NCBI GenBank assembly: GCA_013265495.1
Contig: MU058206.1
Span: 622,001 to 686,000 of the forward strand
DNA length: 64,000 nucleotides
Origin: Vicugna vicugna
Lineage: Eukaryota
Direction: 5' to 3'
Both the position numbers and the translations under genes were made by a program. The notes below the pieces were generated by a model. That model was not told where the DNA came from and searched no databases. It saw only the letters and a list, made by a program, of their open reading frames with translations. Within the stretch, counting starts at the first letter, position 1; each line of letters starts with the position of its first letter. Positions 19,584-63,643 of this stretch are shown here, piece after piece.

Positions 19584-20352
19584 CCTCACATCCCAGGAAA
19601 AAACTCTTCTTCATTTGTACTCGCTCTCATGTGATCCACAGATTATTCAAGGATTAGATGAATCACAATTTGAAATGGAAACAGCTACTCGAGAGTATTT
19701 GCAATCGGCCTCCATCCTCTGCAATGAGGAGCCCCATAAATTCTCCTCCACCAGAAGCTTTTCATCTTCAGGAGAAAAGAATTCTCAGAAAAATCCACCA
19801 GAATCATTTTCTCCTTCAGACCCTCCTGCAGGAAGGGCGACTGTGCCGGCAGGAACTAACCCTGAAGTCACTGCACGTGTGTCACAGCACATATTCTGTT
19901 ACTGCTGGCAACTTTATGCCAACTGTTCAACACACGCACAAAACACAATGGGAATACCACAGCGTGGGCACTGAATTACCCTCTAAACCCACCGGCTTCA
20001 CTTTTCCCAGGGCTTTCATCCTTGGGTGATGAAATTCAGCTAAACCAGCCGCTACGGTCCCCAATCCCCAGTAATGACGTTAGAAGTCTCATTTCTCTTG
20101 TAATGCAGACGTTGAAGATAGACTGCTCTGAGGCCTTCGTGCAGCCGGCCTATGCCAAGCTCATCTCCAGAACAGGCCTCCTGATGAAGCTTCTCAGTGA
20201 GCAGCAAACAGTAAAGGTGTCCAAGGCAGAGGGGGATACTGACCAATAGAAAACGAATAATTACATGAGTGAGAGCACAGAGGCCAGAGTGAACAGAAAG
20301 GGCAGGAGTCAAGTGAGGAGAGGACAACGCCTGAGACATGGGGACCTGGACT
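19584..20352 (+). pseudogene. LRRC37A: LRRC37-family fragment: 3' part of the large post-LRR exon, with frameshifts and stops
   Basis: Translates in shifting frames to [25 protein letters not shown] and [36 protein letters not shown]...[32 protein letters not shown]. This matches recalled human LRRC37A [37 protein letters not shown]...[32 protein letters not shown]. The paralogue cannot be determined. Confidence 0.9.
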
Positions 20353-20384
20353 TATCAGTGTAGGACATGCCATTACAGTGCAGG

Positions 20385-21040
20385 AATCTGGACACGGAGA
20401 AAGAGGCTTGGACTGGGACTGGAAACATTTCAATAGGAAAATGAGCAGAGCCCTCCTGCTGCTCTGGAGAATTTTCAGCCTCCTTAGTGGGCTCTGGAGT
20501 TATAACTGCTAGATCTAGGGGTTTAACTGTGAGGTTAGGCATCACTGGATGCTGAGCTCCATCTGGACCTGCAGGTGAAAATGTCACCTTACTATGTACT
20601 AGCGGTTTTGCTGCAACATCTGTAGAGATGTCTGGAGGCGGAGTTGGGTGCTGATGCTTGACTGTAGTAGGTTCAACCTCCTCACGGATCTCTAGAGGCT
20701 GAGATGGGGCCACCCGCTCAACTGGATCAACAGGACAGTGTCCAGGGACAGGGCCCAGGGTCCAGCAAACTGATATGGCCCTGCAGGCAGCTCTCCATCT
20801 GTATTTGTGTCTGGCTAGGAAACAAAGCCTCAGGCAATTCCTGATGAGGCCTGGCCAACCTCTGGGCTGCAGAGGAGGGTGTCAAGTAATTCAACCCCCC
20901 CAGCTCTGCCCAGGGTGTTGGCCTGTGGGGAGATTCAGGTGGGAGTTTAGGGACTGTGAAATCCAAGGCTCGATCAGCCCCGGGGAGTCAGAGGTCAGCT
21001 GGACAGGGTCCAGGGACAGCTCCGGGCGCAATCTGCCTGG
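20385..21040 (-). pseudogene. LRRC37A: LRRC37-family fragment: internally deleted pieces of the large first coding exon, inverted relative to the adjacent fragment
   Basis: ELSLDPVQLTSDSPGLIEPW (human [20 protein letters not shown]), LPPESPHRPTPWAE, and the LRRC37 repeat VTFSPAGPDGAQHPVMPNLTVKPLDLAVITPEPTKE. Frameshifted; no signal peptide. Confidence 0.88.
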
Positions 21041-21098
21041 AATAACAGGCAAAATGCTTAAAATGCAAAGAGGGACTGTAGAAACAAAAAGTGCCACA

Positions 21099-21147
21099 GG
21101 GACATGACACCCCATCCTCCTTCCTTCCCCCTCCCCAGGGCTGCCAA
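21099..21147 (+). repeat. Right copy of the ~50-bp direct repeat
   Basis: GGGACATGACACCCCATCCTCCTTCCTTCCCCCTCCCCAGGGCTGCCAA; the last 21 bp are identical to the left copy. Confidence 0.85.
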
Positions 21148-62068: not shown

Positions 62069-62203
62069 CTTGAAAGACTCCAGGAATCCCCCATGGCCCC
62101 CACTCTCAAACTTGTCCTCTTCTGGGCCCAGTCCCAGCATGGCCTGCGTGTGGGCGTGGAGTTCGTCGTGAAGGTTGTCCAGGAGGGCTGCCTTCGTCCG
62201 GTC
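62069..62203 (-). pseudogene. RAP1GAP2: RAP1GAP2 exon (end of the RapGAP domain) with a mutated splice acceptor
   Basis: [45 protein letters not shown]|gtacga, 135 nt; recalled human [45 protein letters not shown]. The acceptor reads ttccaa|GAC instead of ag|GAC. Confidence 0.9.
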
Positions 62204-62563
62204 TTGGAAGGGAAAAAAAAGGGTGGGGGTGGTTAAGCTGGCACTGAGAGCAGAGATGTGCCCCCCCCCCGGAGGCTCCAGACACCTGGCCCAAGGGCTG
62301 TGAATCTGGCCAGCTACATCCCAGCAACAGTGTGGACCTATATCCAGGCTGGGCTTCATGCTCACAAATGCTGCAGCTAACACTACAGCTCCGTGCCCTG
62401 CCCCCTGCTCCCTTCTCTCTGTCCCTTCTCCCTGGGCCATCTCGCCCTCCCATGGCTCTGCCCTGATGACTCCCAGCCCAGATCTCTGCCCCAGGCACCA
62501 CGTCCATGTACCCAACTGCCCATAGCTCCTCTCCATCCAGGTGTGCATCCAAGGTCACATCTA

Positions 62564-62582
62564 CAGCCACCAGGGGGCGCCA
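62564..62582 (+). promoter_or_regulatory. Strong CTCF consensus site
   Basis: CAGCCACCAGGGGGCGCCA matches the core CCACCAGGGGGCGC exactly. Confidence 0.65.
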
Positions 62583-63547
62583 TTCACACAGACCAGGACC
62601 AACCCTTTCAGCAACACAGCCTTTGCCCGTGCCTCCAAATAGCAGGTCCAGACAGTGTTCCCATGTCAGCAAAGAGCCCAAGCCAAAGGCCCGGGTGGCT
62701 CCCCACAATCCCACTTCTCCCCACTCTTATATACAAGAGTCCATCAAGTCTTCCTGACTCTGAGCACTTCCTGTGCTGAAGCAAGCTGCCACTCTGCCTC
62801 TTGGACTCCTGTAATAGCTTCTAGCTGGCCCCCTTCCTGCCCTCCTGCCTTCAGGCTGACCGTCACCTCTGCCACCTCCTCCTGTACTTTATTAGGGCCT
62901 TATCACCTCTAGCTCAAAGCCTTTCTTGATCTGACCCAACCAGCATCTGCAGCTGGTCCTCCCACCATTCCATCCCCCTCATGAATCCAACCCTCTGGAG
63001 CTCCCTCACGAAGTCATGCTCTGAATCTGCCCGGCCTTTTCATGCTGATTCCCACGCCTGGAATAACCCTCCCCAATCTTTCCTCGTGGCAGAAGTCTCA
63101 TTAGATATCCAGATTTGGCAGCTCCAAGGCCACCTCCTCCAAAAAGCCTTCCCTGAACACACCTTCCATTCCCCACAGGCAGAAGCAGCCACTACCCTGA
63201 GCCACAGCCCCTGCTGGCCTCCGTCATAGTCCAGGGCACTCTATCATACCTGTCTCCACCAGCCGGTGAGCTCTGTAGGGGCAGAAACTGTCTCACTTAT
63301 CCCAGTTTCCCAGGGAACAGAACAAAGCACAGTACACAGTAGGTGCTCAATAAGTAATCAGCGAATGGTTGACTAGACCTAAAGTTTGGAGGGAGTTCCC
63401 ACAAGAAGAAAGAGCTCCACATCAACACAATGCTGAAGGCTTAGAGGGGCAAAGATGGTGCTTCCCACCTTAAATAGCCCCCAAGAATAGACCCTCGAGA
63501 AAGGCTGGCCCGGTGGGCAGGAGGAAGACCAGAAACCTCGTGCTCAC

Positions 63548-63643
63548 CTCCAGCTTCGCAAACTTGTCTGACTTGCAGCAAGCGTTCTCCGCGTTGGTGA
63601 GCTTGGTGGGCTTGGTGAGCAGAAACTCTCTGAACTCTGGGCC
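63548..63643 (-). pseudogene. RAP1GAP2: RAP1GAP2 RapGAP-domain exon with an in-frame 9-bp duplication
   Basis: ttccag|[32 protein letters not shown]|gtgagc, 96 nt; recalled human [29 protein letters not shown]. Confidence 0.9.

What the first reader, a model, noticed from the sequence alone, without database searches (positions are those of the whole stretch)
19584..63643. The window may be a camelid duplication mosaic joining TMEM92, LRRC37, RDM1 and RAP1GAP2 sequence
Seen: pieces of four genes within 45 kb, only TMEM92 intact. Known (recalled): in human these lie far apart on chromosome 17 (TMEM92 at 17q21.33 between COL1A1 and XYLT2, RDM1 at 17q12, RAP1GAP2 at 17p13.3). Inference: a truncated RAP1GAP2 27 kb downstream of TMEM92 implies a duplication or rearrangement breakpoint between about 37 and 61 kb. 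This TMEM92 could be one of several paralogues.
Basis: partly seen in the sequence, partly recalled or inferred. Interest (0 to 1): 0.7.

Follow-up and report, generated by a model that had tools for sequence, protein, structure and literature searches.

The report
Camelid TMEM92 with imported gene scraps
In alpacas and camels an ordinary membrane-protein gene, TMEM92, is surrounded by old copied fragments of three other genes, and in the alpaca one fragment (the first exon of RDM1) is annotated as an alternative start that replaces the protein's signal peptide.

Summary
The four gene pieces are real. The window is alpaca: its five TMEM92 exons translate exactly to RefSeq XP_031530515.2. LRRC37 occurs as three decayed genomic fragments, RDM1 as exon 1 only, RAP1GAP2 as two damaged exons with none of the later exons. 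A misjoin is unlikely: gene models of three Camelus species carry the same truncated RAP1GAP2 next to TMEM92, with the same derived N-to-S change and shifted splice acceptor, and a dromedary model spans the LRRC37 insert and both its flanks. These two insertions therefore predate the camel-alpaca split (about 16 My). TMEM92 looks like the resident orthologue, not one of several paralogues: oryx and pangolin upstream exons map to both sides of the inserts. Read depth was not obtained. Both small inserts keep intron sequence, lack poly(A), join pieces in mixed orientation and sit between direct repeats (about 40 and 238 bp), pointing to DNA-level templated copying. New point: RDM1 exon 1 splices in frame onto TMEM92 exon 2 in RefSeq alpaca isoforms, replacing the signal peptide; a whale model fuses the same exon to LRRC37. 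A camelid version of the known LRRC37/RDM1 duplicon behaviour; function of the chimera unproven.

The parts
12730..12846 (+). Ancestral TMEM92 5' sequence: homologue of an upstream exon of the oryx TMEM92 X2 model, ending at a GT donor
   Evidence: P0231 residues 6-29 and 30-37 match colinearly; 32.7 bits against a maximum of 26.6 in 100 shuffles
15541..15724 (+). Left-flank exon used by the dromedary LRRC37A5P model (KAB1264905), which then splices into the LRRC37 insert
   Evidence: 95% identity over 62 aa; name and accession
19533..19583 (+). Left copy of the direct repeat around the LRRC37 insert (21-bp exact core, about 38 bp outside LRRC37 homology, 51 bp at 86%)
   Evidence: self-BLAST E 3e-7
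19584..20410 (+). LRRC37 fragment 1: 3' part of the long C-terminal exon (called exon 9 by inference) with frameshifts and a stop, running on into intron
   Evidence: PF14914 E 4.5e-29; tblastn of LRRC37 proteins
20405..21108 (-). LRRC37 fragment 2: start of the repetitive first exon, joined tail to tail with fragment 1
   Evidence: matches P0266 residues 26-205 and its repeats
21099..21147 (+). Right copy of the direct repeat; its AG is the acceptor of the last exon of the dromedary model (21140-21199)
23887..24152 (+). Left copy of a 238-bp direct repeat around the RDM1 block (with an internal 28-bp tandem)
   Evidence: 11 differences in 205 bp
24030..24398 (+). Three 100% identical 123-bp tandem copies directly upstream of the RDM1 promoter; recent
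24399..24591 (+). RDM1 5' region and exon 1 (coding 24496-24591, phase 0, GT donor); first exon of RefSeq alpaca TMEM92 isoforms XP_031530514 and XP_031530517
24800..25400 (.). CpG island of unidentified origin inside the RDM1 block (GC 71-76%, CpG o/e 0.67-0.89)
   Evidence: donor not identified
25834..25905 (-). LRRC37 fragment 3: remnant of one LRR exon in A+T-rich intron-like sequence
   Evidence: 5 of 150 LRRC37 proteins hit, best E 0.006
26401..26638 (+). Right copy of the 238-bp repeat
29442..29513 (+). Ancestral TMEM92 5' sequence matching a pangolin N-terminal extension
   Evidence: P0159, E 2e-4
30292..34594 (+). TMEM92, five coding exons, intact, 164 aa, WBP-1 domain
53578..57554 (-). 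Four cryptic terminal exons (57554, 56053, 55819, 53634 as 5' ends) used by Camelus RAP1GAP2-like models; shows this stretch is colinear in camels
   Evidence: 0-3 differences per segment
61492..61821 (-). RAP1GAP2 intron sequence (matches read-through C-termini of pangolin and tiger isoforms); the junction lies below this
   Evidence: P0060 E 1.7e-8, P0068 E 6e-4
62069..62203 (-). RAP1GAP2 exon, last one of the truncated copy; acceptor AG lost and re-formed 1 nt downstream; N-to-S change
63548..63643 (-). RAP1GAP2 exon with an in-frame 9-bp duplication

Best explanation
This is the resident alpaca TMEM92 locus. On the camelid stem lineage (after the artiodactyl origin, before the camel-alpaca split) it received DNA-level copies from other parts of the same chromosome: a 1.56-kb two-piece LRRC37 insert, a 2-kb block with the RDM1 promoter and exon 1, a foreign CpG island and an LRRC37 intron piece, and, 27 kb downstream, a mid-gene slice of RAP1GAP2. 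The most likely route is repair or replication with template switching (the broken end copies from one or several donors, then returns to the target a little upstream, leaving a direct repeat). Most pieces then decayed as pseudogenes. The RDM1 promoter stayed CpG-rich and, because RDM1 exon 1 and TMEM92 exon 1 both end in phase 0, splices in frame to TMEM92 exon 2. The 173-aa product lacks a signal peptide, so it is most likely a minor, mis-targeted or unstable isoform whose main effect is to add RDM1-type expression to the locus. Shown: the pieces, their lesions, the repeats, sharing of the LRRC37 and RAP1GAP2 inserts with camels, the in-frame model. Inferred: the copying mechanism, absence in other mammals, promoter activity, fate of the protein.
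For: Not a misjoin: RAP1GAP2-like accessions lie next to TMEM92 accessions in three Camelus annotations (dromedary XP_031325546-549 / 550; C. ferus XP_032313678-681 / 683-691; Bactrian XP_045368094-105 / 111); their last exons map to 53.6-57.6 kb. 15 of 15 camel models and the window read ESG where 86 other relatives read ENG (33 of 134 lacked the motif). The camel junction RFPE-D needs a shifted frame that leaves one G, and the 1-nt shifted acceptor seen in the window. Dromedary KAB1264905, two accessions before TMEM92, covers left flank, LRRC37 insert and right flank. Age: the copy keeps T where both camelid parents have S (49 T, 5 P, 2 S among 56 of 79 scored) and shares A with ruminants and camelids against S in 41 others; split date 16.3 My, camelid origin 55-60 My (PMC12127551). 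DNA-level copying: intron retained, no poly(A) at either end of either insert, inverted internal junction, flanking repeats. Resident TMEM92. Chimera: exon join equals P0125 exactly; the model exists in two versions that differ at one residue, so on two genome sequences; best 11-residue hydropathy in the first 32 aa falls from 2.23 to 1.17; CpG o/e 0.84 at the exon.
Against: No outgroup DNA was available, so the empty sites were never seen and the repeats may come from the donors rather than the target; at the LRRC37 right end the repeat overlaps the LRRC37 start codon region, which fits microhomology as well as target duplication. The RDM1-led isoform was found in alpaca only: 3 of 115 TMEM92-type proteins, none from Camelus, so the RDM1 block is not shown in camels. 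Transcript support for the RefSeq model was not seen directly. The order of accession numbers is an indirect sign of adjacency, and in the dromedary GenBank set the RAP1GAP2-like model is 1,247 numbers from TMEM92. The dating rests on single residues. The RAP1GAP2 junction is only bracketed (34.6-61.5 kb) and could be the edge of a larger rearrangement. XYLT2 and COL1A1 were not located.
Confidence: 0.72

Rival explanations
1. The whole window is one copy of a larger segmental duplication, and this TMEM92 is one of two or more paralogues.
For: Dromedary model P0247 (KAB1264908, next number after TMEM92) is TMEM92-like, needs several frame changes and differs at two residues. Camelids have other LRRC37 copies (P0273, P0265). 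Pseudogenes would not show in protein searches.
Against: All named camelid hits among 106 are isoforms of one TMEM92 gene apart from P0247; ancestral 5' sequence is present over at least 17.5 kb; the ORF is intact; P0247 may be a poor model of the same locus or an assembly error.
Confidence: 0.1
2. The RAP1GAP2 piece marks a true camelid inversion or translocation breakpoint with a duplicated edge, so sequence beyond it is 17p13-type rather than XYLT2-type.
For: The copy runs off the window's end; camel models show it spans several more exons (Rap_GAP profile 40-171); LRRC37/RDM1 loci are unstable in dog and primates.
Against: The copy is truncated at both ends in camel models (starts at a new Met, no dimerisation domain), which fits a mid-gene slice; a full-length parent exists; camelid karyotypes are conserved.
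Confidence: 0.2
3. The small inserts are L1-mobilised retrocopies or 3' transductions with target-site duplications and twin-priming inversion.
For: Direct repeats flank both inserts; the LRRC37 insert has an inversion; L1 and a processed gene lie in the window.
Against: Introns retained, no poly(A), G+C-rich repeats of about 38 and 238 bp (L1 duplications are usually 7-20 bp at TT/AAAA; recalled), and the two LRRC37 halves converge and come from opposite ends of the gene, unlike twin priming.
Confidence: 0.05
4. Assembly artefact: misjoin or collapsed repeats in one alpaca assembly.
For: The 3 x 123-bp perfect tandem could be an assembly slip; alpaca chr16 was fragmented in an earlier assembly (PMC6598621).
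Against: Shared adjacency and shared lesions in three Camelus annotations; two alpaca model versions; 14 of 24 listed runs, in 6 studies and 3 organism labels, hold 87-97% of the words of 24400-34399 (presence, not contiguity).
Confidence: 0.02
5. The arrangement is older and shared with other artiodactyls.
For: A whale has an RDM1-LRRC37 chimera on the TMEM92 contig; the window's LRRC37 piece is no closer to two camel LRRC37 models (73%, 76%) than to seal or squirrel (80%, 79%).
Against: The whale chimera is 593 accession numbers from its TMEM92; no ESG-type RAP1GAP2 outside Camelus among 120 hits; no RDM1-led TMEM92 outside alpaca; repeat divergence 5.4% (95% CI 2.7-9.4) against about 3.5% between alpaca and camel suggests roughly 12-45 My.
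Confidence: 0.08

Closest known systems
Primate LRRC37 core duplicon of chromosome 17 (Giannuzzi et al. 2013, PMC3530683)
   Same: Partial LRRC37 copies scattered along the same chromosome, joined to pieces of unrelated genes, lineage-specific.
   Different: That paper reports one LRRC37 copy in cow and one complete copy in dog; here the pieces are under 1 kb, heavily decayed, inserted into the flank of a single-copy gene, and in camelids.
Promoter capture by LRRC37 from BPTF and DND1 (Bekpen et al. 2012, PMC3371713) and KANSL1-/NSFP1-LRRC37 fusion transcripts (PMC12721320)
   Same: A duplicated 5' gene end placed upstream of another gene drives a chimeric transcript.
   Different: Direction is reversed: the duplicon's passenger RDM1 donates the promoter and a coding exon to an unrelated intact gene and removes its signal peptide. 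No expression or protein data.
Dog chromosome 9 complex CNV at 20.1-21.6 Mb (Berglund et al. 2012, PMC4053742)
   Same: Non-primate mosaic of RDM1, LRRC37 and other genes that are not neighbours in human; proposed there as a mammal-wide unstable region.
   Different: Megabase, polymorphic, with VPS13D and ARHGAP27; here kilobase inserts that appear fixed, with TMEM92 and RAP1GAP2.
Balaenoptera ricei LRRC37A2-like X3 (XP_059764429, P0275)
   Same: RDM1 exon 1 used as the first coding exon of a chimeric model.
   Different: Partner is LRRC37 and further RDM1 exons are included; a RefSeq prediction only.

Membership tests
LRRC37 core-duplicon mosaic segmental duplication | Contains LRRC37-derived sequence | tested here: met
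   three fragments
LRRC37 core-duplicon mosaic segmental duplication | Mosaic of pieces from separate loci of the same chromosome | tested here: met
   RDM1, LRRC37, RAP1GAP2 pieces; full-length RAP1GAP2 and another LRRC37 model on same-length contigs as TMEM92; RDM1 donor not located
LRRC37 core-duplicon mosaic segmental duplication | At least 1 kb at 90% or more DNA identity to another locus | not testable with these tools
   no camelid genome held; protein identity to two other camel LRRC37 models only 73-76%, so it may be too old for the usual definition
LRRC37 core-duplicon mosaic segmental duplication | Same core recurring in several blocks; copy-number variable | tested here: inconclusive
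   other camel LRRC37 models exist; no depth data; 0 hits for four gene names in 11 supplementary files of a dromedary CNV map
Chimeric gene by promoter/first-exon capture | Donor 5' end with start codon and splice donor upstream of the acceptor gene, same strand, compatible phase | tested here: met
Chimeric gene by promoter/first-exon capture | Spliced transcript observed | tested here: inconclusive
   RefSeq predicted isoforms only; such models normally rest on RNA-seq introns (own knowledge); reads not examined
Chimeric gene by promoter/first-exon capture | Protein made or sequence under selection | not testable with these tools
   exon 1 peptide is 69% identical to the whale one, compatible with neutral drift; an open 32-codon frame is not evidence of selection
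L1-mediated retrocopy or transduction | Introns lost, poly(A) tail, short A/T-rich target duplication | tested here: not met
TMEM92 orthologue | Intact five-exon ORF with signal peptide, TM helix, PPxY tail, WBP-1 domain | tested here: met
TMEM92 orthologue | Ancestral upstream context | tested here: met
   oryx, sheep, pangolin extensions map at 12.7, 29.4 and 30.2 kb
TMEM92 orthologue | Flanked by COL1A1 and XYLT2; single copy | not testable with these tools
   outside the window; no genome, no depth
Functional Rap-GAP (RAP1GAP2) | Dimerisation domain plus complete catalytic domain | tested here: not met
   camel model P0004 has Rap_GAP profile 40-171 of 185 and no PF21022; 11 changes in 108 aa against the alpaca parent

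The most novel reading that the evidence does not exclude
The RDM1 5' end is a mobile promoter-plus-coding-exon cassette that rides with LRRC37 duplications across mammals and has been captured independently by TMEM92 in alpaca and by LRRC37 in a whale; in alpaca it yields a translated, signal-peptide-less TMEM92 (173 aa) with RDM1-type (germline or proliferating cell) expression and altered topology or location, possibly tuned by the recent 3 x 123-bp expansion just upstream.
Probability: 0.15. Interest if true: 0.62.

Novelty: new variant of a known kind. Interest (0 to 1): 0.4.

Why it matters
It extends the LRRC37/RDM1 'core duplicon' behaviour, studied in primates and noted in dog, to camelids, whose karyotypes are regarded as very stable, and shows it acting at kilobase scale on a single-copy gene. 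The inserts are old, small and bounded by repeats, so their junctions can test how such mosaics start (template switching against retroposition or unequal crossing-over). The RDM1-TMEM92 isoform is a directly testable case of first-exon capture. Practically, the RAP1GAP2-like and LRRC37A5P gene models here are pseudogene read-throughs that can mislead camelid annotation and variant calling. No link to a camelid trait is shown.

Tried and rejected
No whole genome is held for this window. Read depth, split reads and RNA splice junctions were not obtained, so copy number and the chimeric splice remain open. Two metagenome scans for host contigs: TMEM92 alignment, 586 pattern matches, 0 confirmed; RAP1GAP2 exon, 1 of 426, a 50% match of no use. 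ESM Atlas gave no usable name for the RDM1 peptide or the whale N-terminus; PDB gave only chance WD40 matches. Pfam on 50 stop-to-stop frames chosen from 63 between 34.7 and 61.5 kb (one of the 50 was an extra 37-aa stretch): 0 hits, so no fifth gene; two exon-like stretches near 50.1 and 50.7 kb matched nothing. Self-comparison found no repeat marking the RAP1GAP2 junction. The donor of the CpG island was not identified. The extension test missed the oryx protein through a faulty pattern; it was tested separately. In one search one of eight segments (P0139) was mis-scored by an indel and dropped: 18 differences in 241 aa (7.5%, about 3.5% DNA by simulation). The random-pair control for the short repeat gave 2 of 1960 pairs at or above its score, probably from the known longer repeats (not checked). 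Literature: no paper with TMEM92 and camel, 1 irrelevant with RAP1GAP2 and camel, 6 with LRRC37 and camel and 2 with TMEM92 and RDM1, none relevant by title; searches found no camelid description. The library lacks most subscription papers.
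Full report
Identity of the window. TMEM92 exon 4 matched alpaca TMEM92 X1 at 100%, and the five exons joined by coordinates equal that protein exactly. It is recorded on a 63.3-Mb contig, the same length as given for full-length alpaca RAP1GAP2. That this is chromosome 16, the human-17 homologue, is recalled. No genome was held, so all comparison is through protein records.

The four pieces. TMEM92 is intact. LRRC37 is three fragments: the 3' part of the long C-terminal exon with some intron (+, 19584-20410), the start of the repetitive first exon (-, about 21100-20405), joined tail to tail, and one LRR exon remnant (-, 25905-25834). 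Exon labels follow passages of PMC3530683; 'exon 9' is my inference. RDM1 is exon 1 only: 32 codons, LLVWEL at 17-22, as PMC2095821 states for human exon 1 (passages); a whale protein that starts with a 69% identical peptide carries the Pfam RDM1 domain. RAP1GAP2 is two exons on the minus strand; 79 of 79 full-length relatives hit them and none hit a later exon. One exon has a 9-bp duplication, the other has lost its acceptor AG and gained one 1 nt downstream.

Not a misjoin. The best hit of the RAP1GAP2 exon was a 177-aa 'RAP1GAP2-like' cluster of 15 models from dromedary, Bactrian and wild camel. Their RefSeq numbers sit next to those of TMEM92 in all three species; their variable last exons map to window 57.5, 56.0, 55.8 and 53.6 kb. 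All 15 and the window read ESG where 86 other relatives, both camelid full-length genes included, read ENG (33 of 134 lacked the motif). The camel models read RFPE-D where the parent reads VFQK then the skipped exon then D; only 2 of 128 codings allow that reading, it leaves a single G, and it needs the shifted acceptor seen in the window. So the copy and two of its lesions are shared. A dromedary model, KAB1264905, two numbers before TMEM92, has exons in the left flank (15541), in the LRRC37 insert (20010) and in the right flank (21140), so that insert is shared too. Against: accession order is indirect, and in the GenBank dromedary set the RAP1GAP2-like model is 1,247 numbers from TMEM92 (it is on the other strand; ordering by strand is a guess). 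Fourteen of 24 listed runs hold 87-97% of the words of 24.4-34.4 kb, which shows presence only.

Age. The split of Old and New World camelids is put at 16.3 My and the camelid origin at 55-60 My (PMC12127551, passages). The RAP1GAP2 copy keeps T at a site where both camelid parents have S (49 T, 5 P, 2 S in 56 of 79 scored) and has A at a site shared by ruminants and camelids against S in 41 others: a duplication on the camelid stem, on single-site evidence. Neutral segments differ by 18 of 241 aa between alpaca and camels, about 3.5% DNA (one segment dropped). The repeat around the RDM1 block differs at 11 of 205 bp (CI 2.7-9.4%), which brackets or exceeds the split; the block's presence in camels is not shown.

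Is TMEM92 a paralogue? Probably not. An oryx isoform has an upstream exon that maps in two colinear pieces to 12730-12847 and ends at a GT donor (32.7 bits; best of 100 shuffles 26.6); pangolin, oryx and sheep extensions map to 29.4 and 30.2 kb. Ancestral TMEM92 5' sequence thus lies on both sides of the two small inserts. Among 106 TMEM92 hits the camelid ones are isoforms of one gene, except P0247, a frameshifted dromedary model with the next accession number, which could be a bad model, an assembly error or a decayed tandem copy. Protein searches cannot see pseudogenes and read depth was not obtained.

Junctions and mechanism. The LRRC37 insert (1564 bp) lies between copies of a repeat with a 21-bp exact core (51 bp at 86%, E 3e-7). 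The RDM1 block (24399-26400) lies between copies of a 238-bp repeat and contains RDM1 exon 1, an unidentified CpG island and an inverted LRRC37 piece. Both keep intron sequence, have no poly(A) and mix orientations. This argues against retroposition and fits templated insertion with template switching and return to an upstream position (established models such as MMBIR/FoSTeS, recalled); without the empty site this is inference, and the repeats could be donor-derived. The RAP1GAP2 junction lies between 34.6 kb and 61492, the lowest point of RAP1GAP2 intron homology; nothing narrowed it.

The chimera. RefSeq alpaca isoforms XP_031530514 (173 aa, two versions differing at one residue) and XP_031530517 (146 aa, no TM helix) begin with the RDM1 exon. 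Both first exons end in phase 0, so the join is in frame. The RDM1 peptide has no hydrophobic core (1.17 against 2.23), so the signal peptide is lost; the single TM helix might act as a signal anchor or the protein may be degraded (inference). CpG is retained at the exon and the island next to it (o/e 0.84 and 0.67-0.89), as expected of a promoter that stays unmethylated (inference). Only 3 of 115 TMEM92-type proteins carry this N-terminus, all alpaca. A whale model joins the same exon to LRRC37. Neither was checked against reads. The camel RAP1GAP2-like product lacks the dimerisation domain and part of the catalytic domain and is most likely a transcribed pseudogene.

Comparison with what is known. 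Primate LRRC37 is a core duplicon with lineage-specific copies (PMC3530683, passages) that gained promoters from BPTF and DND1 (PMC3371713, abstract and outline) and forms fusion transcripts with partial duplicates (PMC12721320, passages). A dog CNV joins RDM1, LRRC37 and other genes not adjacent in human (PMC4053742, one passage). The window works like these; strict membership as a segmental duplication could not be tested. An earlier unchecked note of this scan describes LRRC37-RDM1-LYZL6 duplications at camelid FKBP10. No camelid description was found (supplements of PMC11513024 searched, 0 hits for four names, though LOC identifiers would be missed; its main text was not read; three supplementary .doc files of PMC2095821 could not be read).

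Verdict. Observation confirmed; mosaic and junction supported; misjoin unlikely; paralogue idea not supported. An old, mostly dead set of insertions at an orthologous locus, with one live-looking by-product, the RDM1-led TMEM92 isoform. New variant of a known kind; interest 0.4.

Noticed in passing
window 5096-6203 (+): Intronless copy of a DUF4657 gene (PF15552, E 1.8e-92; C8orf58 by recall): 293 open codons, then a stop, then the rest of the frame; set in L1-rich sequence, probably a processed pseudogene with an unusually long open frame.
   Followed up: partly
window 24030-24398: Three 100% identical 123-bp units directly upstream of the RDM1 promoter, while the outer copy at 26516-26638 differs at 4 sites: a recent expansion, a polymorphism or an assembly slip.
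   Followed up: partly
window 24800-25400: CpG island with a minus-strand GT donor near 25005, looking like the non-coding first exon of an unidentified fifth gene.
   Followed up: partly
window 34047-34106: Camelid TMEM92 has D at the end of the TM helix where 10 of 12 other mammals in alignment A1 have G (2 have C), and TS where most have IF at its start.
   Followed up: no
window 57378-57441 and 57626-57689: 64-bp direct repeat at 83% identity around the cryptic exon used by camel RAP1GAP2-like models.
   Followed up: no
window 4840-4972, 43796-44071, 51334-51470: Four tRNA-derived SINE copies about 80% alike; the camelid Vic-1 family by recall.
   Followed up: no
window 50054-50164 and 50667-50731 (+): Two stretches with good acceptor and donor sites that look like exons but match no Pfam family or fetched protein.
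   Followed up: partly
P0247 (KAB1264908, dromedary): TMEM92-like model needing several frame changes, next accession after TMEM92; possible decayed tandem copy or assembly error.
   Followed up: partly
P0265 (Camelus, 69-Mb contig): An LRRC37B-like fragment on a contig longer than the TMEM92 chromosome, so LRRC37 pieces may also have moved between chromosomes in camels.
   Followed up: no
P0004 residues 31-82: The camel RAP1GAP2-like model has no change against the parent over 52 residues that include the catalytic motif region, but 8 in the first 30; chance, gene conversion or some constraint.
   Followed up: no
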